DNA of 64,000 nucleotides from the NCBI GenBank assembly GCA_929200535.1, contig CAKMZV010000005.1, positions 12,442 to 76,441 of the forward strand. Reading direction: 5' to 3'. The notes under the pieces were generated by a model. That model worked only from the letters and a program-made list of their open reading frames with translations, was not told where the DNA came from and did no database searches. The translations under genes and the position numbers were made by a program. Positions 1,174 to 44,704 of the stretch are shown here, piece by piece. Origin of the DNA: an uncultured Gammaproteobacteria bacterium. GTDB taxonomy: Bacteria; Pseudomonadota; Gammaproteobacteria; CAKMZV01. Positions within the stretch are counted from its first letter, which is position 1. The number at the start of each line of letters is the position of its first letter.

Positions 1174-1289
1174 TTATTGGTTTTTAAAAAATCCACAGAT
1201 TAACACAGAGAAAATAATTTGTGAATTCTTTGAATTCCCTATTTCCCACGCTCCTGCGTTGCTTTACGGGTGCTATATTTAATTTAGGT

Positions 1290-1310
1290 ACGTTTTTCCA
1301 AACGTTTTTT
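1290..1310 (+). terminator. candidate rho-independent terminator after the SDR gene (acgttt-ttcc-aaacgt stem-loop followed by T6)
   Basis: 6-bp inverted repeat with 4-nt loop followed by tttttt, between convergent genes. The stem is weak and AT-rich. Confidence 0.35.
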
Positions 1311-1370: not shown

Positions 1371-3491
1371 TTAAAGTTCAGTCGGATCAAGGCGTAGCGA
1401 CCAGCGTAATAGTGAAGGGCGTTGCCATTGTTTGATGGTGTTAATGGTGGGTTTAAGGAGTTGATGCAAGGCTTTGCGGTGGGTACAATGAATGAGAAAT
1501 TGGAGGCGGTAATGAATGCCGATTTTTTCAATACTGGCAGGGACGACTGGGTAAATAATAAACTCCTCTTGGAGATTGTTTTGTGCCGTATAGTCAAGGA
1601 CTATTTTATGAGCTTTTTGAATAAAATCTGTGGCGTGTTGTTGATTTGGACATTCAACTCTTAGCAGGGCTTGGGGATAGTAAGGCGGTAATTTGCTACT
1701 TTGGCGTTGGTTGAGGAGTTTATTGGCAGAGTGAATGTAGCCGTATTGAAACAGGTTTTGCAGAGTAGGGTGAGTGGGATGGTGGGTTTGGATAAGCACT
1801 TGACCATTTTTTTCACCTCTGCCTGAACGCCCTGAAACTTGAGTAATTAACTGAATTAACTTCTCTTCAGTGCGATAATGTGGGCTGAGTAGTCCTTGAT
1901 CGGTATTGATGATTCCCACAAGCGTCACATTTGGAAGATCATGCCCTTTACTCACCATTTGAGTGCCTAATAGAATATCTATTTCATTATCGTGCATTTT
2001 TTTAAGGATGGCTTGCATACTCCCTTTGCGTTGGGTACTGTCACGGTCTAAGCGGGCAATGGTCGCTTGTGGAAACTGCTCTCTAAGTAGTTCCTCAATT
2101 TTTTCAGTGCCATCGCCAAGGGTACGTAAATCATTCGATTGGCAGGATGGGCAGTGTGATGGGCTACGTGCTTTCCAATCACATATATGGCAATGTAGGG
2201 CATCTTTTTTACGGTGAAAAGTAGGAGGTCTTTCACAGTGTATGCATTCGGGTATCCAACCACAAGAATGGCAAATAAGTACAGGAGAATAACCCCGACG
2301 ATTAAGGAATAGAATGCTCTGTTCTTTTTTGGTAATATTGGCTTTAATTTCCTTAATAAGAGGTTCGCTAAGCGAGCTATTTCTTTGACGCATATCGATA
2401 AAACGAGTTTTTGGGAAACTTCCCTCACCGGCACGTTGAGGTAATGAAAGAAGACGATAATGCTTATGATAGGTATTGTGCAAACTTTCAAAAGACGGCG
2501 TAGCTGAGCCGAGCACAATAGGAATATCTTCAAGTTTGGCACGCATTACCCCAACATCTCTGGCACAATAATGCACCCCATCGTGCTGGCGGTAAGAATC
2601 ATCGTGTTCCTCATCAATAATAATCATTCCAAGATTGGCAAGTGGGGTAAAAACGGCAGATCTTGTGCCGAGAATAATTTGTGCTGTGCCTTCTTTCGCA
2701 GCTTGCCAAGCAATTGCTCTTTTCTTTTCTGTGCGTTCAGAATGATAAACATACAGATTATCAAAGCATTGGCTAAAGCGATGAATATTTTGTTGGGTAA
2801 GAGCAATTTCAGGAACAAGAATAAGAATTTGTTTCCCCTGATTAAGGCAGGCTTGAGTGAGTTGCAAATAAACCTCAGTCTTGCCACTACCAGTGACACC
2901 GTGTAGCAACCAAGCAGTAAAACCTTGTGGTTCTTTTTGAATTGTTTGAATGGCTTTTTGTTGCTCCGCATTGAGTTCATCAAATGAGCGTAATGTATTT
3001 TTTTGTTTTTCAGATAACGAGCCTGCAATAATCTCCTTATCTGAGGGAGCAGGTTTATCTAACCAAAAACGCCGAGGTAATGCCGTTTGCCAAATAATCC
3101 CCTCCCAATGATAGTAATAAGTCGTCATCCATAGGATAAGGTCATTAAGTTTTGGCGGAAGAATAGGCTCCCTATCAATAATTTCCTCAATAGGTTTGAG
3201 CTGATACTTCTCTGGTAAGGAATCAGCCGTGATTTTTTGGCAACTATAAACAATACCAATTCGCTTTTTTTTGCCAAGCAAAACAGCCACCCGACAAAAT
3301 AAAGGAATAGCCTCAACAGAGCGATAACTCAATGCTTGAAGCGATAAAGGAAAAAGAACTTCAATGCGATGTCCGCCGTCCCTTTGTGAGGCACCTAAAG
3401 GGCAACTATTATTCCTCCCCTCCTTGGGGAAGGTACCCGAAGGGTCAGCATTCCCCTCCCTTGGAGGGGTGCCCGAAGGATTTGTCTTCAT
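1371..3491 (-). CDS. priA: primosomal protein N' (replication restart helicase PriA)
   Basis: Walker A LLHGVTGSGKTEVYL, DEEHD box, and the Cys-rich zinc region CHSCGWIPECIHCERP...CHIC...CPSC. N-terminal region aligns with E. coli PriA from about 'IEVLFPLSL' onward. The first ~35 codons of the ORF are the GC-rich tandem repeat, so the true start is uncertain. Confidence 0.9.
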   Translation of the reverse strand: MKTNPSGTPPREGNADPSGTFPKEGRNNSCPLGASQRDGGHRIEVLFPLSLQALSYRSVEAIPLFCRVAVLLGKKKRIGIVYSCQKITADSLPEKYQLKPIEEIIDREPILPPKLNDLILWMTTYYYHWEGIIWQTALPRRFWLDKPAPSDKEIIAGSLSEKQKNTLRSFDELNAEQQKAIQTIQKEPQGFTAWLLHGVTGSGKTEVYLQLTQACLNQGKQILILVPEIALTQQNIHRFSQCFDNLYVYHSERTEKKRAIAWQAAKEGTAQIILGTRSAVFTPLANLGMIIIDEEHDDSYRQHDGVHYCARDVGVMRAKLEDIPIVLGSATPSFESLHNTYHKHYRLLSLPQRAGEGSFPKTRFIDMRQRNSSLSEPLIKEIKANITKKEQSILFLNRRGYSPVLICHSCGWIPECIHCERPPTFHRKKDALHCHICDWKARSPSHCPSCQSNDLRTLGDGTEKIEELLREQFPQATIARLDRDSTQRKGSMQAILKKMHDNEIDILLGTQMVSKGHDLPNVTLVGIINTDQGLLSPHYRTEEKLIQLITQVSGRSGRGEKNGQVLIQTHHPTHPTLQNLFQYGYIHSANKLLNQRQSSKLPPYYPQALLRVECPNQQHATDFIQKAHKIVLDYTAQNNLQEEFIIYPVVPASIEKIGIHYRLQFLIHCTHRKALHQLLKPTINTIKQWQRPSLLRWSLRLDPTEL
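3417..3479. repeat. GC-rich 27-bp direct repeat x2 (36-bp period) at the 5' end of priA; hairpin-forming (CC-UUCG-GG and CCCCUCC/GGAGGGG stems on the priA-sense strand)
   Basis: cccctccttggggaaggtacccgaagg (3417-3443) and cccctcccttggaggggtgcccgaagg (3453-3479), sharply GC-rich in an AT-rich genome. In-frame they encode PSGTPPREG / PSGTFPKEG upstream of the conserved PriA N-terminus. Confidence 0.6.
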
Positions 3492-4645
3492 TTCAATTTT
3501 TTTATTGCCTGCTCAATATCGCCAGGTAGTTGTGCTTCATCTTTTAATCTGCTTTGATGAAATTTATCATATTTTTCTTGTGCCAGTTGATCGGCTATTT
3601 GTTTTGTTACGTTTCCTGCATTGGTTAAAACTTCTTGGTTATTAAGTTGTAGAAATGCATCTAATTTTTCACGCCAATCTTTCATAAACATTTGTTTGTG
3701 ATTTTTAGCTTGGAGCTCGGCATAGTCTAAATACATTGTTACAATTCTGTTGAGCGTGTCTAATTCCTCTTTATATAGGCTACCTCTATTAAATATGACC
3801 CGTGTAAAAAAGCGAAAAATTCTCCCCAATTTCGTTGAAAAAAGTGGCAATAGAATGGCTATTACTCACTTTTTCCGCCTCATTGGGAATAATTTTTCAT
3901 CTTTTTTCCATCGTCCCATATTTAATAGAGATAGCCGATAATTTTTAGAAATAGTAACATCTTGTTTTCTTACTTTGTTTCCTTGCCAAGTCGTAAGCCC
4001 CATATTATCTTGCTTGACATCACTACGTTCTGCAATTACCTCGGCGGCGGTATGACCAGTCGCTGCAAAAATAAGTTTGTTTTGCACCACTTTAAAAAAT
4101 TCTTGTGTTTCTTCTGCCTTGGGTTCATAGTCTATGGATAGGGCATAAATATCCGTAATTTTGCGGTAAAAACGTTTTTCACTGGAACGTATATCTCGTA
4201 TCTCTTCTAATAGGTCATCAAAATAATCTTTACCAAAAGGGTTATCAGGATTTTTGAGTTTTTTATTATCAAGAACAAAACCTTTAATAATCAGTTCTTT
4301 TAGTTGCCGTGTTGCCCAAATTCTAAAGTGTGTTCCACGAATGGAATTGACTCGATAGCCTACTGAAATAATCATATCCAAATTGAAGAAATCCATTTGG
4401 TATGTTTTACCGTCTGTGGCAGTTGTTGCAAATTTTGCAACAACTGAATCTTTCTCTAACTCTTTGGTTTTATAGATGTTTTTGATGTGGCGACTGATGC
4501 CACTCTTATCAATGCCAAAAAGTTCTGCCATTTGATTGATGGTAAGCCAAATGGTTTCATCTTTGAGTAATACATCTACCTTTACCTCACCGTCTGGATT
4601 TCGGTAGAGTAAAAAATTGTTATGCTTGTTTGTTGCTTTATTCAC
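3488..4645 (-). pseudogene. rhuM: rhuM-family virulence/Fic-associated protein gene, split by a MITE insertion
   Basis: ORF 3866..4645 (259 aa) matches the RhuM N-terminal and central regions (...WLTINQMAELFGIDKSGISRHIKNIY...NLDMIISVGYRVNSIRGTHFRIWATRQLKELIIKGF...). ORF 3488..3850 carries the RhuM C-terminus (...DYAELQAKNHKQMFMKDWREKLDAFLQLNNQEVLTNAGNVTKQIADQLAQEKYDKF...). The break coincides with the 159-bp TIR element at 3778-3936. Confidence 0.7.
3778..3936. mobile_element. MITE-like element, family B copy 1 (20-bp TIR ggctacctctattaaatatg / catatttaatagagatagcc), inserted in rhuM
   Basis: Near-perfect terminal inverted repeats. A second copy with the same termini and subterminal module (atatgacccgtgtaaaaaagcga) lies at ~41656-41827. 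No ORF of transposase size. Confidence 0.65.
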
Positions 4646-4802
4646 TATTGGGTGGAAATAGTTGTTGTAATAAGCCTTTTTTATGGGTTTGCAATTATAG
4701 CAATCATGCGGATGAAAACACCACGGGAGGGGAATAACTACTCCGTCACTTCGTGGTATTCCTCTATGGGGGGAATAATCGCTTATTTTCGTATAAGAGT
4801 CT

Positions 4803-7765: not shown

Positions 7766-7805
7766 GAGACTTTTTCACTTGTCATATTTTTTGTGCAAAG
7801 GTCTC
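7766..7805. repeat. minimal family-A element or solo terminus (gagactttttcac...acttgtcatattttttgtgcaaaggtctc) between gatC and gatA
   Basis: Contains the 28-bp family-A terminus (reverse complement of gagacctttgcacaaaagatatgacaagt) paired with a short degenerate gagac half-site. Confidence 0.5.
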
Positions 7806-8091
7806 ACTCTATAATGGTGGGCACAAGATATAATCCAGCTTCTGTTTGTGGGGCATTTTGTTGCATTTTTTCTCGCTGGTCTTTTTCTGTAACTACATCT
7901 TCACGTAATCTTTGGGTGATGGCTAAGGGGCTGGACATTGGCTCTACCTTAGATGTATCCACCTGATTAATTTGATCAATCAAGCTGATAACTTGATTAA
8001 ACTGTTCGGTAAATTTTGGGAGCTCTTGATCATTAAAATGAAGGCGTGCAAGATGAGCAACTTGTTTGATATTTTCGCTTTTTATGGACAT
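7804..8091 (-). CDS. gatC: Asp-tRNA(Asn)/Glu-tRNA(Gln) amidotransferase subunit C
   Basis: 95-aa protein, MSIKSENIKQVAHLARL..., typical GatC size and position upstream of gatA. Confidence 0.85.
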   Translation of the reverse strand: MSIKSENIKQVAHLARLHFNDQELPKFTEQFNQVISLIDQINQVDTSKVEPMSSPLAITQRLREDVVTEKDQREKMQQNAPQTEAGLYLVPTIIE

Positions 8092-9328: not shown

Positions 9329-9625
9329 GAGACCTTTGTACAAAAGATATGACAAGTAAAAAAGTAAAAAATTGCCTTGATTTTTATTCGCAAGCGCTTC
9401 AAACGCTGTTACTCTATGGTTCGTAAACTCACCAAGAGTAAAAACGCTTTTTGTGTTGTGAAACTTGCGAAGACGGACGTATTAGCTTCATTTCACGCCT
9501 CAATCAGAATAATTTTTTATCTTTTTTCTTTTACCTGCAAGCAGTTCAAACACTGTTACTCTAAGGCTCGCAAGCTCGCCAAGAGTAAAAACGTTTTTTG
9601 TGCCATACTTTTATGTAAAGGTCTC
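9329..9625. mobile_element. MITE-like element, family A copy 1 (TIR gagacctttgtacaaaag...cttttatgtaaaggtctc), with an internal ~70-bp module duplicated
   Basis: Begins 4 bp after the mreB stop. ~95% identical over shared parts to the copy at 30036-30263. Internal module (caagcgNttcaaacRctgttactctaWggYtcgYaaRctcRccaagagtaaaaacgYtttttgtg) is present twice (9379-9450, 9536-9606). Confidence 0.7.
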
Positions 9626-22815: not shown

Positions 22816-22825
22816 TTCTAATCTG

Positions 22826-22857
22826 CGACCTTTGCATCTCTTTTATGCAAAGGTCTC
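22826..22857. terminator. perfect palindromic hairpin (gacctttgcat-ctctttt-atgcaaaggtc) = minimal family-A element; likely bidirectional terminator between convergent genes
   Basis: 11-bp perfect stem with 7-nt loop, 11 nt after the hlyD stop. Sequence equals fused family-A termini. Confidence 0.5.
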
Positions 22858-23248
22858 AATCTATAACAATTTCCTCTTTATTAAACTTTTTCCTAACAAA
22901 GTTAAGGGCAGGGAGGAGATTGAATTTTTGAATAAAATATCTCTCAAACTTTTGCTTTTTAGGAAAATCTAACAGAATAATACCGATAAGAATGGTGAGG
23001 ATGCCTTGACCAGGGGTGAATAGAAAAACAATCCCAATCAATAAAAAGAACACCCCAAAAAAATTAGAAACAAAAAATAAAATGGGGTTTTTTCGCCTCT
23101 TTTCTTTGATGAAATAATCATACGGGATTTTGCAAATTAAAAACGGAGTAATCAACAGAGAAACCACAAATAGCGTGGCACTAATTATCGAAATATAGAG
23201 CAAAATAGTAGTGTAATCAAGACTTGAGATAAATTCTATAATATTCAT
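22856..23248 (-). CDS. small inner-membrane protein (PGPGW-like)
   Basis: 130 aa, 3-4 predicted TM helices, TPGQGILTILIGIILLDFP motif. No confident family. Confidence 0.45.
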   Translation of the reverse strand: MNIIEFISSLDYTTILLYISIISATLFVVSLLITPFLICKIPYDYFIKEKRRKNPILFFVSNFFGVFFLLIGIVFLFTPGQGILTILIGIILLDFPKKQKFERYFIQKFNLLPALNFVRKKFNKEEIVID

Positions 23249-23299: not shown

Positions 23300-24835
23300 C
23301 TAATTTATCGATAGGGTCGAGAGATTGAGGAAATTGCCATCGGTGGAGAGTTGGTAATTTTTGGCTCGAGAGCTAAGGACGACGAATTGGTTTTCGTACC
23401 ATAGTGAAACGTAGGGGAGGTCTTTTTGTAATTGATGTTGCAGTTGAAAGTAATATTTTTTCTTTTCGTCGATGCTTTGGGCTTGGTCACCTTTTTCAAT
23501 AAGTTTATCAGCTATTGGATTAATGTATTTTCCGCGGTTTGCTCCCTTAGGGGGAATCATCGAACTGTGGAACACATAACGATAAATATCAGGTTGTTTA
23601 ATACCAACCCATGAAAGTGAATAGAGTTGAAAACTGCCTTTTTTAATATCACCATAAAAAGTACCCCAATCATAACTTTGAATAGTAATATTGATATTGA
23701 TTTTTTTGAGTTGATGTTGGATAAGGGTAGCAACGCGCAAACGAAAGGCGGATTTTGACGTTTTATAAGAAAGCTCTAAAGGGTTGTTTTTATCATAGCC
23801 AAGCGTTTTAAGAAGTGCAATCGCTTGTTCAGGTTGGTAGGGGATATCGTTAAGGGTATCATCGGATGACCAATGTTCCCTTGGTAGCAAAGTTTGAGCA
23901 AGGCGGGCACGCTGGTTAAAAAGATATTGAATAATTTCTTGGCGGTTAATGCCGAGTGAAATGGCACGCCTAATTGTGCTGTTAGAGAGGATAGCATCTT
24001 GCAGGTTCATCCCGAGATAGGTGTAGCTACTTCCGAGTTTTTCCTTAACAATTAACTCCTTTTGTTGCGAGAGATATTTAATCAACTCTTGCGATAAGCC
24101 ATTTTGAATAATATCAATTTCTCCCTTAAGGATTTGCAGGGTTTTAACGGTATCGTCCCTACTTACAAGAAACTGAAAAATTTTATTATCCTTTTTTCGC
24201 TTGAGGTAAACATCGCCCTCGCCATCCCAATGGGCAAGTTGAAAACTACCACTGCCATTATGTTTTTTAATATTTTTGCCAGCGAGTTGAGTGCGTGGAA
24301 TAATACCAATCACCAGATTAGCAGGAAATAGAATATCCGGTTTTTTCAGGATAAAATCCACCGTTGTGGTATTGATTTTGACAATCTCCTTGATATTGAG
24401 CAGACTTCCGCGATGTGGCGAGCCCGTATTTTTATCCAACACCGATTGATAAGTGGCAATAAAATCCTCAATCTGCAAAGGTGTACCATCAGTAAAAGTA
24501 GGGCTACCTATCAGTCTAAAACGGTAATGAGAGTTACTAAGTTGTTGCCAATCGCTAAGCCACGCAATGGGATTACCCTCGCTATCAAACTTAACAGGAG
24601 CCTTATAAAGCAACTGAGCAATGCGAAAAGAAACCGCATCAGTCGCAAAACGAGGATCCAAAGTGCGCGGTGCGGATTTAATGGCAAACACAATATCGCT
24701 CTGTTTGGGTAAAGCAGTATCGGCAGTATTTGTGCCCTCAATAGAAGAGGAATTTGAGCAAGCGGTGAGGAATAATCCTGTTAGATATACAAGAAAGTTT
24801 TTTTTAAAGATTTCGCATTTAATAGAGGTAGCCAT
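23300..24835 (-). CDS. ABC-transporter substrate-binding lipoprotein, family 5 (OppA/DppA/NikA-like), orphan
   Basis: Lipobox LTACS, SBP_bac_5 architecture over the full length. No permease or ATPase genes adjacent. Confidence 0.8.
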   Translation of the reverse strand: MATSIKCEIFKKNFLVYLTGLFLTACSNSSSIEGTNTADTALPKQSDIVFAIKSAPRTLDPRFATDAVSFRIAQLLYKAPVKFDSEGNPIAWLSDWQQLSNSHYRFRLIGSPTFTDGTPLQIEDFIATYQSVLDKNTGSPHRGSLLNIKEIVKINTTTVDFILKKPDILFPANLVIGIIPRTQLAGKNIKKHNGSGSFQLAHWDGEGDVYLKRKKDNKIFQFLVSRDDTVKTLQILKGEIDIIQNGLSQELIKYLSQQKELIVKEKLGSSYTYLGMNLQDAILSNSTIRRAISLGINRQEIIQYLFNQRARLAQTLLPREHWSSDDTLNDIPYQPEQAIALLKTLGYDKNNPLELSYKTSKSAFRLRVATLIQHQLKKININITIQSYDWGTFYGDIKKGSFQLYSLSWVGIKQPDIYRYVFHSSMIPPKGANRGKYINPIADKLIEKGDQAQSIDEKKKYYFQLQHQLQKDLPYVSLWYENQFVVLSSRAKNYQLSTDGNFLNLSTLSIN

Positions 24836-30035: not shown

Positions 30036-30263
30036 GAGACCTTTGCACAAAAGATATGACAAGTAAAAAAGTAAAAAGTTGCCCTGATTTTTATCCGCAA
30101 GCGGTTCAAACGCTGTTACTCTATGGTTCGTAAACTCACCAAGAGTAAAAACGCTTTTTGTGTTGTGAAACTTGCAAAGACGGACGTATTAGCTTCATTT
30201 CACGCCTCAATCAGAACAATTTTTTATCTTTTTTCTTTTGCCATACTTTTATGCAAAGGTCTC
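30036..30263. mobile_element. MITE-like element, family A copy 2 (228 bp; TIR gagacctttgcacaaaag...cttttatgcaaaggtctc)
   Basis: Near-identical to 9329-9625 but with a single internal module. 18-bp perfect TIRs. No coding capacity beyond a ~25-codon ORF. Confidence 0.7.
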
Positions 30264-32710: not shown

Positions 32711-33709
32711 TTATCCGCCGAGTGATACCATTTGACGAAATTCAATATTTTTTCGATTTTCATTGAAAAAATGACGCTCTGGTTTTAGTTCCATCGATTT
32801 GACAATCATAGCCTCAAGTTCATTATCGCTGATGCCATCACGTATTGGTTGGCGTAAATCAATGGAATGTTCTTGCCCCAGACATAAGGCAAGCGTGCCT
32901 CTTGAGGTGAGACGTACGCGGTTGCAGGTGGCACAAAAATGTTGTGATACAGCGGAAATAACGCCGATACCGAGGTGTTTTTTTTCAGTACGGTAGTATT
33001 TTGCCGGTCCACCACCTTGGCGGCTAATGCTCGGAATTAGTTTTTCACCAAGGTGTTTTTCAACCCGCTCAAGCATTTCTTGCATTGGGATGTGTTTGTT
33101 CATTGAGTCAATCCCAGATTTTCCAATCGGCATTATTTCAATAAAGCGTAATTCAAGCCCGTATTTTGCGCTCCAATCAATGAGGTTTTCCATTTGGTCG
33201 TCATTAACTCCTCTCATCATTACGGTATTGATTTTGATTGGATCAAAGCCAATTTTTTTGGCTTGATAAATGCCTGTGAGAACTTTATTAAGGTTTCCAC
33301 CTCGGGTGATGCGATTAAATTCATCTGCGTTGAGCGTATCTAATGAAATATTCAGACGCCTAATGCCTGCTTGATAAAGGGGTTTTGCATAGCGTTCTAA
33401 GCGAGTGGCGTTAGTGGATAATGAGAGATCTAAATTGTCATTATCTTGGTTTATCATTGATACTATTTCGGTTAGATCTTTGCGTAAAAGAGGTTCGCCT
33501 CCAGTAAAGCGAATTCGCTTTACTCCAAGACGCACAAAAGCGGAGCAAATGCGAGAAATTTCTTCGGCAGTTAAATATTCAGTGTATTTGCCATTGGGGT
33601 GAACTCCTTTTGCTGGTGAGCAATAATCACAACGCAAATCACATTTATCCGTTACAGAAACGCGGATATAAGTAATTTCACGACCAAATGAATCAATTAG
33701 ACTTGTCAT
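32711..33709 (-). CDS. moaA: GTP 3',8-cyclase (radical SAM, molybdenum cofactor biosynthesis)
   Basis: CDLRCDYC radical-SAM cluster motif, C-terminal second cluster (CATCNRVRLTSRG), full-length MoaA similarity. Start codon lies inside a solo family-A repeat terminus. Confidence 0.9.
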   Translation of the reverse strand: MTSLIDSFGREITYIRVSVTDKCDLRCDYCSPAKGVHPNGKYTEYLTAEEISRICSAFVRLGVKRIRFTGGEPLLRKDLTEIVSMINQDNDNLDLSLSTNATRLERYAKPLYQAGIRRLNISLDTLNADEFNRITRGGNLNKVLTGIYQAKKIGFDPIKINTVMMRGVNDDQMENLIDWSAKYGLELRFIEIMPIGKSGIDSMNKHIPMQEMLERVEKHLGEKLIPSISRQGGGPAKYYRTEKKHLGIGVISAVSQHFCATCNRVRLTSRGTLALCLGQEHSIDLRQPIRDGISDNELEAMIVKSMELKPERHFFNENRKNIEFRQMVSLGG

Positions 33710-33730
33710 ATCTTTTGTGCAAAAGTCTCA
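33701..33730. repeat. solo family-A repeat terminus (acttgtcatatcttttgtgcaaaagtctca) overlapping the moaA start codon
   Basis: 28/30 match to the family-A terminus. The ATG ACA AGT of moaA is the atgacaagt of the repeat. Confidence 0.5.
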
Positions 33731-33889: not shown

Positions 33890-34252
33890 TTAATTTAATA
33901 CTTTATAGCCTCGGTTTTTTAAACATTTTTTAACAATACTGCTTTCTTCTTCATCATTCTTTAAGGCTCCTAAAGCTGTTCCTTCAGTAGCTCCGATGGC
34001 AGCGTGTGTGCCGACATTTTCTGGGTCAATTAAGGCACCAAGAGTACCTCGAAGTAATGCCCCAAAACCCGCACTTTTGGCAATGTTCTTACCGCTTTCT
34101 AACTGCTCTGCGACTTGTTCGCATTCAGCAAGATCAGTTTTATAAGCATCTATATCGATACCTTTAGTGTCGATAACTGGGCGACTGGCACAGGATGAAA
34201 GCAGTAGTGTTGACAGGGCAATTATCCAAAAAATGAAATTTTCTTTAACCAT
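33890..34252 (-). CDS. lipoprotein with glycine-zipper motif
   Basis: Lipobox LLSSC, then GFGALLRGTLGALIDP...GTHAAIGATEGTALGAL glycine-zipper-like segment. Overlaps the dsbA stop. Confidence 0.5.
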   Translation of the reverse strand: MVKENFIFWIIALSTLLLSSCASRPVIDTKGIDIDAYKTDLAECEQVAEQLESGKNIAKSAGFGALLRGTLGALIDPENVGTHAAIGATEGTALGALKNDEEESSIVKKCLKNRGYKVLN

Positions 34253-34871
34253 TTTTTAGTAAATAATTAATTATTTTGAAGATCTCATCTTTTCCCCCGG
34301 CGGTTTTTTCAGAAACACGATACTTCCCTTTAACAATAAAAGAGGGAACGCCTTCAATTTCAGATTTTTCAGTTAATTTTTTAGCTTGGGTCATTAAATT
34401 TTTAACCGCAAAACTATTGTAGGTTTTAGTAACGGTTTCTTTGTCAACTCCAACGCTTTTGAAAATATCGAAAATATCTTCTTGCGAGCGTAGTTGACCA
34501 GAGGAATAACGCTTAAAAATCTCCCCTTGAAGCTCATTGTGTTTTTTCAGTACGAATGCGACGTAGTAAAGTTGGACTGACCATTTGACACGTGGGGAGT
34601 AAAAAGCAGGTTGGTAGTGAAAATTAACTGTAGATTGTTTTGTTTTTAACCACTTTTCAACATATGGGTGAATATTTTTACAATGAGGACAACCATAGTA
34701 AAAAAACTCCACAACCTCAGGTTGCTTAGTCAGCGTGAACTCATTCTTCGGAGGGATTTTAAGATAATGTTTCCCTTCAATATACTTTTCTGCATTGCCT
34801 GACAAAGCAAGCAAAGAGAGAGTAGTTAACAAGAATGCTTTTGATAAAAGTGAAAGTGTTTTTGTTTTCAT
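34245..34871 (-). CDS. dsbA: thiol:disulfide interchange protein DsbA (copy 1)
   Basis: Signal peptide, CPHC active site (FFYYGCPHCKN), DsbA fold length (208 aa). Confidence 0.85.
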   Translation of the reverse strand: MKTKTLSLLSKAFLLTTLSLLALSGNAEKYIEGKHYLKIPPKNEFTLTKQPEVVEFFYYGCPHCKNIHPYVEKWLKTKQSTVNFHYQPAFYSPRVKWSVQLYYVAFVLKKHNELQGEIFKRYSSGQLRSQEDIFDIFKSVGVDKETVTKTYNSFAVKNLMTQAKKLTEKSEIEGVPSFIVKGKYRVSEKTAGGKDEIFKIINYLLKNG

Positions 34872-35027
34872 AATATTATTCTATAAGGTTGTTTTGAAAA
34901 AATTAAATAAAAGTGTAGCCTACAGTTCTCCATTATATCGATACCTTTGGTGTCGATAACTGGGCGACTGGCACAGGATGAAAGCAGTAGTGTTGACAGG
35001 GCAATTATCCAAAAAATGAAATTTTCT

Positions 35028-35654
35028 TTAACCATTTTTTAGTAAATAATTAATTATTTTGAAGATCTCATCTTTTCCCCCGGCGGTTTTTTCAGAAACA
35101 CGATACTTCCCTTTAACAATAAAAGAGGGAACGCCTTCAATTTCAGATTTTTCAGTTAATTTTTTAGCTTGGGTCATTAAATTTTTAACCGCAAAACTAT
35201 TGTAGGTTTTAGTAACGGTTTCTTTGTCAACTCCAACGCTTTTGAAAATATCGAAAATATCTTCTTGCGAGCGTAGTTGACCAGAGGAATAACGCTTAAA
35301 AATCTCCCCTTGAAGCTCATTGTGTTTTTTCAGTACGAATGCGACGTAGTAAAGTTGGACTGACCATTTGACACGTGGGGAGTAAAAAGCAGGTTGGTAG
35401 TGAAAATTAACTGTAGATTGTTTTGTTTTTAACCACTTTTCAACATATGGGTGAATATTTTTACAATGAGGACAACCATAGTAAAAAAACTCCACAACCT
35501 CAGGTTGCTTAGTCAGCGTGAACTCATTCTTCGGAGGGATTTTAAGATAATGTTTCCCTTCAATATACTTTTCTGCATTGCCTGACAAAGCAAGCAAAGA
35601 GAGAGTAGTTAACAAGAATGCTTTTGATAAAAGTGAAAGTGTTTTTGTTTTCAT
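35028..35654 (-). CDS. dsbA: thiol:disulfide interchange protein DsbA (copy 2, identical)
   Basis: 100% identical protein to copy 1, within the second 783-bp repeat unit. Confidence 0.85.
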   Translation of the reverse strand: MKTKTLSLLSKAFLLTTLSLLALSGNAEKYIEGKHYLKIPPKNEFTLTKQPEVVEFFYYGCPHCKNIHPYVEKWLKTKQSTVNFHYQPAFYSPRVKWSVQLYYVAFVLKKHNELQGEIFKRYSSGQLRSQEDIFDIFKSVGVDKETVTKTYNSFAVKNLMTQAKKLTEKSEIEGVPSFIVKGKYRVSEKTAGGKDEIFKIINYLLKNG

Positions 35655-41655: not shown

Positions 41656-41827
41656 GAGACCATCTCTATTAAATATGACCCGTGTAAAAAAGCGAGAAAT
41701 TCTTCCTAATTTTATCAGCAAGCTATTTAAACAATCATAAATTTGCCAAGAATAAAAACACTTTTTGTTGTCTCACTGGAGGGATTTTTTAATTTTTTTC
41801 TATTATCTCATATTTAATAGAGGTAGC
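41656..41827. mobile_element. MITE-like element, family B copy 2
   Basis: Same termini (ctctattaaatatg...catatttaatagaggtagc) and subterminal module as 3778-3936. Left end begins gagacc as in family A. Internal segment ccaagaataaaaacactttttgttgt resembles the family-A internal module. Confidence 0.6.
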
Positions 41828-44422: not shown

Positions 44423-44704
44423 AAGAGTCTGTAATTATGTGTGGTTGGTTATCGCTATTCACTGTGAGCCGTGAAAGAAGGCGAAAATCTATCCCCAATT
44501 TTATTAATAAGCATTTCAAACGCTGTTACTTTAAAAATCGAAAAAAATTAGGCTGCCCTAAAGCAATTTCTTATTATATTCGTACAAATAAAAGTTTACG
44601 TAATTTAGTTATCAGGTTGGTGAAAAATCATAACAAGAATTTTAGGAGTATTGAACGCGTTCTATTAGACTTGTTTTTTAAAGAACAACACTCAGGAGAA
44701 AAAT

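What the first reader, a model, noticed from the sequence alone, without database searches (positions are those of the whole stretch)
3778..3936. Family-B MITE inserted into and inactivating rhuM; modular relationship between families A and B
A 159-bp element with 20-bp TIRs splits rhuM into two ORFs. Its subterminal module (atatgacccgtgtaaaaaagcga) parallels the family-A subterminus (atatgacaagtaaaaaagtaaaaa). Copy 2 (41656-41827) begins with gagacc and contains a family-A-like internal segment. The two families therefore look like modular derivatives of one parent element, and at least one insertion was mutagenic.
Basis: seen in the sequence. Interest (0 to 1): 0.55.

Follow-up and report, generated by a model that had tools for sequence, protein, structure and literature searches.

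The report
Hairpin mobile repeat splitting rhuM gene
A 159-bp hairpin-forming mobile repeat sits cleanly inside a candidate phage-defence gene (rhuM) of an uncultured gammaproteobacterium; it is an ordinary kind of element, but it left no target-site duplication and the gene halves still look constrained.

Summary
Positions 3778-3936 are a 159-bp element with 19/20 terminal inverted repeats. Deleting exactly these 159 bp restores a 333-aa RhuM that aligns without a gap to 53 intact homologues.

The A/B relationship also holds and can be stated more precisely. From ATATGAC inward, B is homologous to family A. Only the outer 15-18 nt of the termini differ. B1 carries a core also found in A-type elements of Thiotrichaceae MAGs, whereas B2 carries the window's A-type core.

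Family A is a true MITE. Nine of 13 copies have perfect 5-bp (one 6-bp) target duplications, and one nested insertion has a visible empty site.

Three caveats apply:
- B1 has no target duplication; at most 1 bp is ambiguous at the junction.
- No transposase and no B copy were found outside this lineage.
- "Inactivating" is inferred only. All three rhuM haplotypes carry an identical B1, yet rhuM differs among them by 6 synonymous and 5 conservative changes plus one in-frame deletion.

The whole element, not only its ends, is kept as a hairpin: 22 of 58 pairs show compensatory change, and G:U pairs fall on one strand. It is a new member of a known kind, of modest interest.

The parts
3778..3936 (+). 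B1: a 159-bp family-B palindromic element inserted in rhuM. Its forward orientation (GGCTACC...ATATGAC) is on the + strand.
   Evidence: It is 100% identical in five other assemblies.
3778..3797 (+). Left terminal inverted repeat, GGCTACCTCTATTAAATATG.
3917..3936 (+). Right terminal inverted repeat, CATATTTAATAGAGATAGCC (19/20 complementary to the left one).
3846..3865 (+). Hairpin tip and core module, GGCAATAGAATGGCTATTAC. It is homologous to the core of A-type elements in Thiotrichaceae MAGs.
3866..3868 (-). The only in-frame stop (TGA) that the element introduces in the rhuM reading frame.
   Evidence: TGA ends 7 of 39 long ORFs in the window.
3937..4645 (-). rhuM 5' part (residues 1-236 plus the first base of codon 237).
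3488..3777 (-). rhuM 3' part (the rest of codon 237 to the stop).
41656..41827 (+). B2: a second family-B copy in an intergenic region. Its left end is GAGACCATCTCTATT. Its core is of the window's family-A type. Only its termini pair.
24798..24835 (-). Truncated B end. ATG plus GCTACCTCTATTAAAT now forms the start codon and n-region of the lipoprotein signal peptide of an SBP_bac_5 gene.
44446..44544 (+). Degenerate B-like left end (75% identity) followed by an A-type core segment.
9329..9625 (+). A1: a family-A element with an internal 147-bp tandem duplication, between mreB and mreC. Flanks are AGTTT/AATTT.
30036..30263 (+). A2: a family-A element with a perfect 5-bp duplication, AAGTT/AAGTT.
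7766..7805 (-). 40-bp family-A mini element between gatC and gatA. The gatC stop codon TGA spans its end.
22825..22857 (-). 33-bp family-A mini element made of the two termini only. Its duplication is AGATT/AGATT. It supplies the TGA stop of the 130-aa gene.
33699..33729 (-). Family-A terminus remnant whose internal ATG is the moaA start codon.

Best explanation
B1 is a non-autonomous, hairpin-forming mobile repeat that behaves like a MITE. It belongs to a roughly 160-nt palindromic repeat superfamily.

The other branch of that superfamily, family A, is shared with Thiotrichaceae MAGs. Family A transposes with 5-bp target duplications.

B keeps the family interior but has its own 15-18-nt outer termini. 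It is therefore probably moved in trans by its own, related or different, enzyme encoded elsewhere in the genome.

One copy landed between the first and second base of codon 237 of rhuM. This gene was horizontally acquired and matches the candidate phage-defence family PDC-S05. The insertion splits the PF13310 domain and brings a TGA 23 codons downstream, so full-length RhuM can no longer be translated from this allele.

Shown: the insertion, its exact limits, the family relationships, and the conserved hairpin.

Inferred: trans-mobilisation, the type of enzyme, and loss of RhuM function.
For: The insertion:
- Deleting exactly 159 bp restores a 333-aa RhuM, 82% identical over its full length to intact proteins and gapless against 53 homologues.
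- Pfam gives one continuous PF13310 match of 369.8 bits for the reconstruction, against two partial matches for the fragments.

Repetition:
- There is a second full copy and two partial B copies within 83 kb.
- Assemblies of other samples break at A1, at A2 and at the truncated B end.

Relationship to family A:
- B1's interior is homologous to A-type copies (E 3e-6) and to a Thiotrichaceae element (E 4.5e-5).
- Family A has perfect flank duplications in 9 of 13 copies (eight of 5 bp, one of 6 bp) and 4 of 5 matches in the other four. The chance rate for a perfect 5-bp match is 0.002. One nested insertion has an empty site visible in sister copies (with boundary corrections read from the same output).

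Not an artefact or known RNA:
- The insertion is present and 100% identical in assemblies from four samples.
- There is no Rfam family in the window.
Against: - B1 has no target-site duplication. Flanks match 1 of 5, and only a single G is ambiguous at the junction. B2 has none either.
- No transposase lies in the window (Pfam lists). No longer element with these termini is in any held sequence.
- No B terminus occurs in GTDB species genomes or the metagenome collection beyond scattered single chance hits.
- No empty-site allele exists in the same species. All three haplotypes carry B1.
- rhuM shows a constrained-looking substitution pattern among haplotypes that all carry the insertion.
Confidence: 0.62

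Rival explanations
1. B elements are moved by a mechanism that leaves no duplication and acts on a single-stranded hairpin of one particular strand. Candidates are REPIN/RAYT-like or IS200/IS605-like HUH enzymes, or another hairpin-recognising enzyme. Under this view a staggered-cut DDE transposase is not involved.
For: - B1 is inserted cleanly end to end with no duplication.
- The whole element is a hairpin: DNA -41.7 kcal/mol, z -10.5, on the minus strand, versus -33.4 on the plus strand.
- Pairing is kept by compensatory change. Twenty-two of 58 pairs changed on both sides, versus 9.3 +/- 2.2 in shuffles and 3-11 in slid controls.
- G:U (G:T) pairs fall on one strand of the element, 53 versus 10, in members from two genera.
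- GTAG/CTAC lies in the outer termini.
Against: - Sister family A shares the interior and the same strand asymmetry, yet clearly makes 5-bp duplications.
- B has true terminal inverted repeats, rather than a separate hairpin at each end.
- Only one intact B copy could be examined for duplications.
- No HUH or RAYT gene was seen.
Confidence: 0.2
2. The element is a tolerated or removable intervening sequence, so rhuM remains functional. Possible routes are precise DNA excision in part of the population, removal or ribosomal bypass at the RNA level, or function as two polypeptides.
For: - Its length is 159 = 3 x 53, with only one stop in the rhuM frame.
- The insertion is exact and scarless.
- The more stable hairpin strand is the rhuM sense strand: RNA -76.1 versus -54.0 kcal/mol.
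- CTA codons lie in frame 156 nt apart at the two junctions.
- Three haplotypes with an identical B1 differ in rhuM by 6 synonymous and 5 conservative changes, with codon positions 4/0/7, plus an in-frame 9-bp deletion. The neighbouring genes priA and gatB show 31/15 and 14/7 synonymous/non-synonymous changes.
Against: - TGA is an ordinary stop codon here.
- No bypass or splicing of a 159-nt insert is known in bacteria.
- There is no Shine-Dalgarno sequence before the TTG restart.
- The substitution signal rests on 11 changes (p about 0.03). Recombination that spread a young insertion could also explain it.
- No intact allele exists among 5.8 billion proteins.
Confidence: 0.1
3. The feature is an assembly artefact or a chance inverted repeat and is not an insertion.
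For: None beyond the fact that the source is a metagenome assembly.
Against: - The identical 159 bp lies at the same site in contigs from four samples and three haplotypes.
- The repeat statistics are far above chance.
- The RhuM reconstruction is exact.
Confidence: 0.02

Closest known systems
Coxiella burnetii QMITE2 and QMITE1 (Wachter et al. 2018, PMC5896051; read)
   Same: - Gammaproteobacterial elements of 150-400 bp with terminal inverted repeats that fold into very stable stem-loops.
- Full-size and truncated REP-like mini versions exist.
- Copies overlap the ends of annotated genes and lie in 3' regions.
- No parent insertion sequence is known.
   Different: - No sequence similarity was claimed or tested beyond the motifs.
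- QMITE2 has 7-11-nt direct repeats and QMITE1 has 2-4. Here family A has 5 and B1 has none.
- The host lineage differs.
MITEs of Candidatus Thiomargarita nelsonii (Flood et al. 2016, PMC4853749)
   Same: - Thiotrichales-type hosts rich in palindromic MITEs.
- One of their MITEs interrupts a metabolic gene (hupL).
- No parent insertion sequence was identified.
   Different: - The hupL MITE has a 10-bp direct repeat and a 19-bp inverted repeat. The dsrA-intron MITE ends in TATAG repeats.
- None of my terminal or core motifs occur in their supplementary sequences.
Rickettsia palindromic elements (RPE; Ogata et al. 2000, from my own knowledge)
   Same: - Palindromic repeats of about 100-150 bp found inside protein-coding genes.
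- Lengths that keep the reading frame.
- No clear target duplication.
- Mobilising enzyme unknown.
   Different: - RPEs are translated as part of the host protein without a stop. B1 carries a TGA and splits the ORF.
- The host group is unrelated and there is no sequence relationship.
REPINs mobilised by RAYT transposases (Bertels and Rainey 2011, from my own knowledge)
   Same: - The hairpin runs the whole length and is kept by compensatory change.
- No target duplication (as for B1).
- A GTAG-type motif lies near the ends.
   Different: - REPINs are pairs of short GC-rich REP palindromes.
- The sister family A here makes 5-bp duplications.
- No RAYT gene was seen.
Neisseria Correia elements (from my own knowledge)
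   Same: - Size of about 100-155 bp with terminal inverted repeats.
- They insert in or near genes and are co-transcribed as hairpins.
   Different: - Correia elements duplicate TA and have a 26-bp inverted repeat of unrelated sequence. Neither feature is present here.

Membership tests
Bacterial MITE (non-autonomous transposon with terminal inverted repeats) | Small size and no coding capacity of its own | tested here: met
   The element is 159 bp. Its only fully open frame has no relative among 5.8 billion proteins.
Bacterial MITE (non-autonomous transposon with terminal inverted repeats) | Terminal inverted repeats | tested here: met
   The repeats match at 19 of 20 positions. The core 14-mer lies at both ends of both full copies.
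Bacterial MITE (non-autonomous transposon with terminal inverted repeats) | Target-site duplication flanking the element | tested here: not met
   B1 flanks are ATATA/GATAA (1 of 5). The net insertion is exactly 159 bp against 53 homologues, with only 1 bp ambiguous. B2 flanks match 2 of 5. Sister family A does meet this feature: 9 of 13 copies are perfect.
Bacterial MITE (non-autonomous transposon with terminal inverted repeats) | Several dispersed copies in one genome | tested here: inconclusive
   There are two full and two partial B copies in 83 kb of one contig. The rest of the genome could not be reached.
Bacterial MITE (non-autonomous transposon with terminal inverted repeats) | Filled site versus empty site | tested here: inconclusive
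   The empty site is seen only in homologues from other phyla. All three haplotypes of this species are filled.
Bacterial MITE (non-autonomous transposon with terminal inverted repeats) | A cognate autonomous element or transposase with the same termini | tested here: inconclusive
   None lies in the window or in held loci. There is no match in plasmids. The whole genome was not available.
Rickettsia palindromic element-like in-frame insert | The insert is read through as part of the host protein | tested here: not met
   The length is a multiple of 3, but a TGA at 3866-3868 ends the ORF.
REPIN / REP-RAYT system | Two inverted short REP palindromes and a RAYT gene flanked by REPs | not testable with these tools
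   The hairpin and the lack of duplication fit. The termini are not palindromic in themselves, and no RAYT gene lies in the sequence held.
IS200/IS605-derived palindrome-associated element | No terminal inverted repeats; a separate subterminal hairpin at each end; a fixed target tetranucleotide on the left | tested here: not met
   B has clear inverted repeats. The left flanks of the copies share no fixed motif.
RhuM family (Pfam PF13310; PADLOC PDC-S05), for the interrupted gene | A full-length match to the family profile | tested here: met
   The reconstruction matches PF13310 positions 1-249 of 252 at E 7.9e-111. It matches PDC-S05 positions 1-333 of 342 at E 1.3e-138.

The most novel reading that the evidence does not exclude
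The roughly 160-nt hairpin repeats are selected as single-stranded hairpins of one specific strand. B1 is a scarless, removable intervening element rather than a dead-end mutation. It would enter and leave rhuM precisely, or be skipped at the RNA level. The candidate defence gene would then stay under selection and might be switched on and off.
Probability: 0.08. Interest if true: 0.75.

Novelty: new member of a known kind. Interest (0 to 1): 0.36.

Why it matters
As it stands, this documents an undescribed family of palindromic mobile repeats in an uncultured, low-GC gammaproteobacterium. One branch is shared with Thiotrichaceae MAGs, with 25-nt termini conserved exactly across genera.

It also shows such a repeat hitting a horizontally acquired candidate phage-defence gene.

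Mobile-DNA specialists may be interested in three further points:
- Two termini types are combined with two core types.
- Compensatory change and a one-strand G:U bias maintain a hairpin along the whole length.
- The sister family makes 5-bp duplications, whereas the one intact B insertion is scarless.

If the scarless insertion and the constrained rhuM halves hold up in more data, the mobilisation mechanism would be worth studying. So would a possible on/off role for the element.

Tried and rejected
- B termini in GTDB species genomes. I ran three patterns: a 21-mer, a gapped repeat pair and a 19-mer. The first two gave nothing and the third gave only 18 scattered single hits.
- B 19-mer in the metagenome collection. 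It gave 17 single hits, all in coding sequence and none with a partner repeat.
- Protein search with the element's open frame, to find other copies inside called ORFs. No candidate was found.
- Rfam on the whole window. No family matched.
- blastn of B1 and A2 against plasmids. Only short chance hits appeared.
- Presence/absence polymorphism among samples. All loci are collinear at 99.3-99.9% identity and every element is present in every sample.
- Long elements with A or B termini in held loci. None were found.
- Synteny of priA or rhuM next to gatB in 80 relatives. None showed it.
- Motifs in the Thiomargarita MITE supplements. None matched.
- Sample or accession numbers in the literature. 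Nothing was found.
- Promoter and terminator scan around B1. Nothing rose above background.
- A 4-bp repeat (ATAG) at offset 156, considered as a possible duplication. I rejected it because it would require an extra arginine (KNYRLYK) that none of the 53 homologues has.
- My codon-position count used the wrong frame for the rhuM 3' part. It was redone.
- Three element coordinates (A3, the L144 copy and L122a) were off by 1-3 nt. The flanks were re-read from the printed sequence.

Full report
**Source.**
- The window is part of an 83.7-kb metagenome scaffold: ENA ERZ23492265, sample SAMEA3913368.
- GC content is 36.6%.
- The closest GatB in GTDB species genomes is only 68% identical. The host is therefore an uncultured gammaproteobacterium with no close reference genome.
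- The same locus occurs in three further samples and in NCBI MAG GCA_929200605.1.

**The observation.**
- Positions 3778-3936 are 159 bp bounded by GGCTACCTCTATTAAATATG and CATATTTAATAGAGATAGCC, which match at 19 of 20 positions.
- The 14-nt core of the repeat occurs exactly four times in 64 kb, at the two ends of this element and of a second copy at 41656-41827.
- A 32-nt terminal string is shared exactly by both copies, against 0 expected.
- On the minus strand the element separates ORF 3866..4645 (259 aa) from ORF 3488..3850 (120 aa).
- These ORFs match Pfam PF13310 (RhuM) profile positions 1-171 and 170-249.

**It is an insertion with exact limits.**
- Deleting 3778-3936 gives a 333-aa protein. 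It is 82% identical over its full length to intact RhuM proteins, mostly from Flavobacteriia.
- The join KNY|LYKEELD aligns without a gap to 12 homologues. Forty more all read (S/A)KNYLxxxE.
- Pfam then gives a single match covering positions 1-249 at 369.8 bits.
- The reconstruction also matches the PADLOC candidate defence family PDC-S05 end to end, at E 1.3e-138.
- The net insertion is exactly 159 bp, and only one base (G at 3778 and 3937) is shared by the two junctions. The inserted DNA therefore runs exactly from one terminal repeat to the other, and there is no target-site duplication.
- An ATAG repeat at offset 156 would imply an extra arginine that no homologue has, so I rejected it.

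**Copies and distribution.**
- Within the 83 kb available there are two full B copies (B1, B2).
- There is one truncated end at 24798-24835, which now supplies the ATG and the first residues (MATSIKCEIFKK) of a lipoprotein signal peptide.
- There is also one degenerate copy at 44446-44544.
- Assemblies of other samples break at A1, at A2 and at the truncated B end, as expected of repeats.
- No B terminus was found in GTDB species genomes or the metagenome collection beyond single chance hits in coding sequence.
- B1 is 100% identical in all five other assemblies of the locus. No sample lacks any of the elements.

**Relationship to family A.**
- An alignment and nhmmer show that B is homologous to A from ATATGAC inward, on both arms.
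- B1 positions 17-135 match an A-type copy just outside the window at E 3e-6. B2's interior matches A1 and A2 at E 3e-7.
- Only the outer 15-18 nt differ: GGCTACCTCTATTAA in B against GAGACCTTTGCACAAAAG in A.
- B2's left end carries the A-type hexamer GAGACC.
- A scan with the A terminus found the family in two Thiotrichaceae MAGs, with the first 25 nt conserved exactly.
- B1's core (GGCAATAGAATGGCTATTAC) is the core of those elements (E 4.5e-5). B2 carries the different core of the window's A copies.

**Family A is a true MITE.**
- Taking the ends as GAGACC...GGTCTC, 9 of 13 copies have perfect flank duplications. Eight are 5 bp and one is 6 bp. The other four copies match at 4 of 5 positions. 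The chance rate for 5 of 5 is 0.002 (with three boundaries corrected by eye from the same output).
- One Thiotrichaceae copy is nested inside another. Its target TATTC is duplicated there and is single in two sister copies.
- Mini versions of 33-40 bp keep both ends.
- Two of the minis supply the TGA stop of gatC and of a 130-aa gene. A remnant supplies the moaA start codon.

**The hairpin.**
- B1 is self-complementary along its whole length (75%).
- As DNA it folds at -33.4 kcal/mol (z -8.2) on the plus strand and -41.7 (z -10.5) on the minus strand.
- As RNA it folds at -54.0 and -76.1 kcal/mol on those strands.
- The same asymmetry holds for A2, A3 and four of the five Thiotrichaceae elements tested (the fifth, L120, is tied 2:2). 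G:U pairs total 53 on one strand of the element and 10 on the other.
- I aligned B1, A3 and two Thiotrichaceae copies, each about 160 nt. In that alignment 90.9% of cells pair.
- Twenty-two of 58 pairs changed on both sides. Shuffles give 9.3 +/- 2.2 (0 of 500 reach the observed value) and slid controls give 3-11.
- So the whole hairpin is maintained, not just the ends. A transposase that acts on double-stranded ends would not obviously require this.
- The orientation of copies relative to neighbouring genes is mixed. The bias therefore looks intrinsic to the element. I could not tell whether the cause is an RNA, a single-stranded DNA intermediate, or concerted evolution of the two arms.

**Is rhuM inactivated?**
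- In the rhuM frame the element has one stop, TGA at 3866-3868, 23 codons in.
- TGA ends 7 of 39 long ORFs here, so it is an ordinary stop.
- No Shine-Dalgarno sequence precedes the TTG of the downstream ORF, and no promoter-like site stands out. Loss of full-length RhuM is therefore the simplest reading.
- Against this, three haplotypes all carry an identical B1. Among them rhuM differs at 11 sites: 6 synonymous and 5 conservative (D>N, E>K, Q>K, V>I, K>N).
- The codon positions of these changes are 4/0/7. There is also one in-frame 9-bp deletion.
- The neighbouring genes priA and gatB show 31/15 and 14/7 synonymous/non-synonymous changes.
- With a neutral expectation of about one quarter synonymous, p is about 0.03.
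- Either the insertion is young and spread by recombination, or the split gene is still constrained. The data cannot separate these two possibilities.

**Mechanism.**
- My best reading (0.62) is a MITE-like element moved in trans, which has interrupted rhuM.
- The main rival (0.2) is mobilisation through a single-stranded hairpin without duplication. The scarless junction and the strand-biased hairpin suggest this. The 5-bp duplications of the sister family argue against it.
- A tolerated or removable insert is possible but weakly supported (0.1).
- An artefact is excluded by independent assemblies.

**Comparison with known elements.**
- The closest described elements are the Coxiella QMITEs: similar size, stem-loops, REP-like minis and overlap with gene ends, but direct repeats of 2-4 or 7-11 nt.
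- The MITEs of Candidatus Thiomargarita nelsonii are also close. None of my motifs occur in their supplementary sequences.
- RPEs, REPINs and Correia elements each share some features and fail others (see the membership table).
- The family itself appears undescribed: there is no Rfam hit and no match in the literature I searched.
- The kind of element is well known.

Noticed in passing
B1 3778-3936; A2 30036-30263; L089 2964-3123; L122, L123, L124, L125 elements: G:U pairs fall almost only on one strand of these elements (53 versus 10), across two genera. The full-length hairpin is kept by compensatory change: 22 of 58 pairs, with 0 of 500 shuffles reaching that number.
   Followed up: partly
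L119-L120 and L122-L125 (Thiotrichaceae MAGs JALWMR01, JALXAX01): Family-A termini (25 nt) are conserved exactly in another genus. These copies have 5-bp target duplications, and L119 holds a nested insertion (992-1150 inside 871-1257).
   Followed up: yes
window 7766-7805, 22825-22857, 33699-33729, 24798-24835: Mini or truncated elements supply gene punctuation. The TGA stops of gatC and of a 130-aa gene, the ATG of moaA, and the ATG plus signal-peptide n-region of an SBP_bac_5 lipoprotein all come from them.
   Followed up: partly
window 3410-3428 and 3450-3464 versus 4721-4737 and 4766-4779: rhuM is bracketed by two plus two GC-rich motifs in inverted orientation (ATTCCCCTCCCTTGG / CCACGGGAGGGGAAT, 93%). 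With its 82% identity to Flavobacteriia proteins, rhuM may itself sit on a small imported cassette.
   Followed up: partly
window 3363-3491: The priA ORF has about 43 extra N-terminal codons made of the GC-rich repeats. The PriA 3'BD domain starts at residue 47, so the true start is probably downstream, and the overlap with the rhuM stop is probably not real.
   Followed up: partly
window 34151-35233: A 783-bp perfect tandem duplication (the two 300-nt repeat copies are 100% identical), giving two dsbA genes, is present only in this scaffold. All other samples have one copy. It is either an assembly artefact or a sample-specific duplication.
   Followed up: partly
L144 8143-11156 (replaces window 1237-1290): The third haplotype has 3.0 kb extra between priA and the SDR gene. 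The segment holds an HTHP heme protein gene, a further A-type element with duplication AAAGT/AAAGT, and a 568-aa ORF with no Pfam or PADLOC match.
   Followed up: partly
window 9382-9602: A1 contains an internal tandem duplication of a 147-bp unit, which makes it 297 bp compared with 228 bp for A2.
   Followed up: no
B termini versus flanks of the A minis (for example 7806-7815, 22858-22867): Sites hit by A elements resemble TTATAGAGT. Read outward, the B terminus (TAATAGAGGTAGCC) resembles such a site followed by the A end GAGACC. I cannot tell whether this reflects a target preference or the origin of the B termini.
   Followed up: no
L086 4383-5433 and L089 4308-5358 (beyond the window's right end): argC is called as two ORFs in two samples and as one 345-aa ORF in two others. 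The loci are collinear, so the cause is a small indel or a consensus error, not a repeat insertion.
   Followed up: partly
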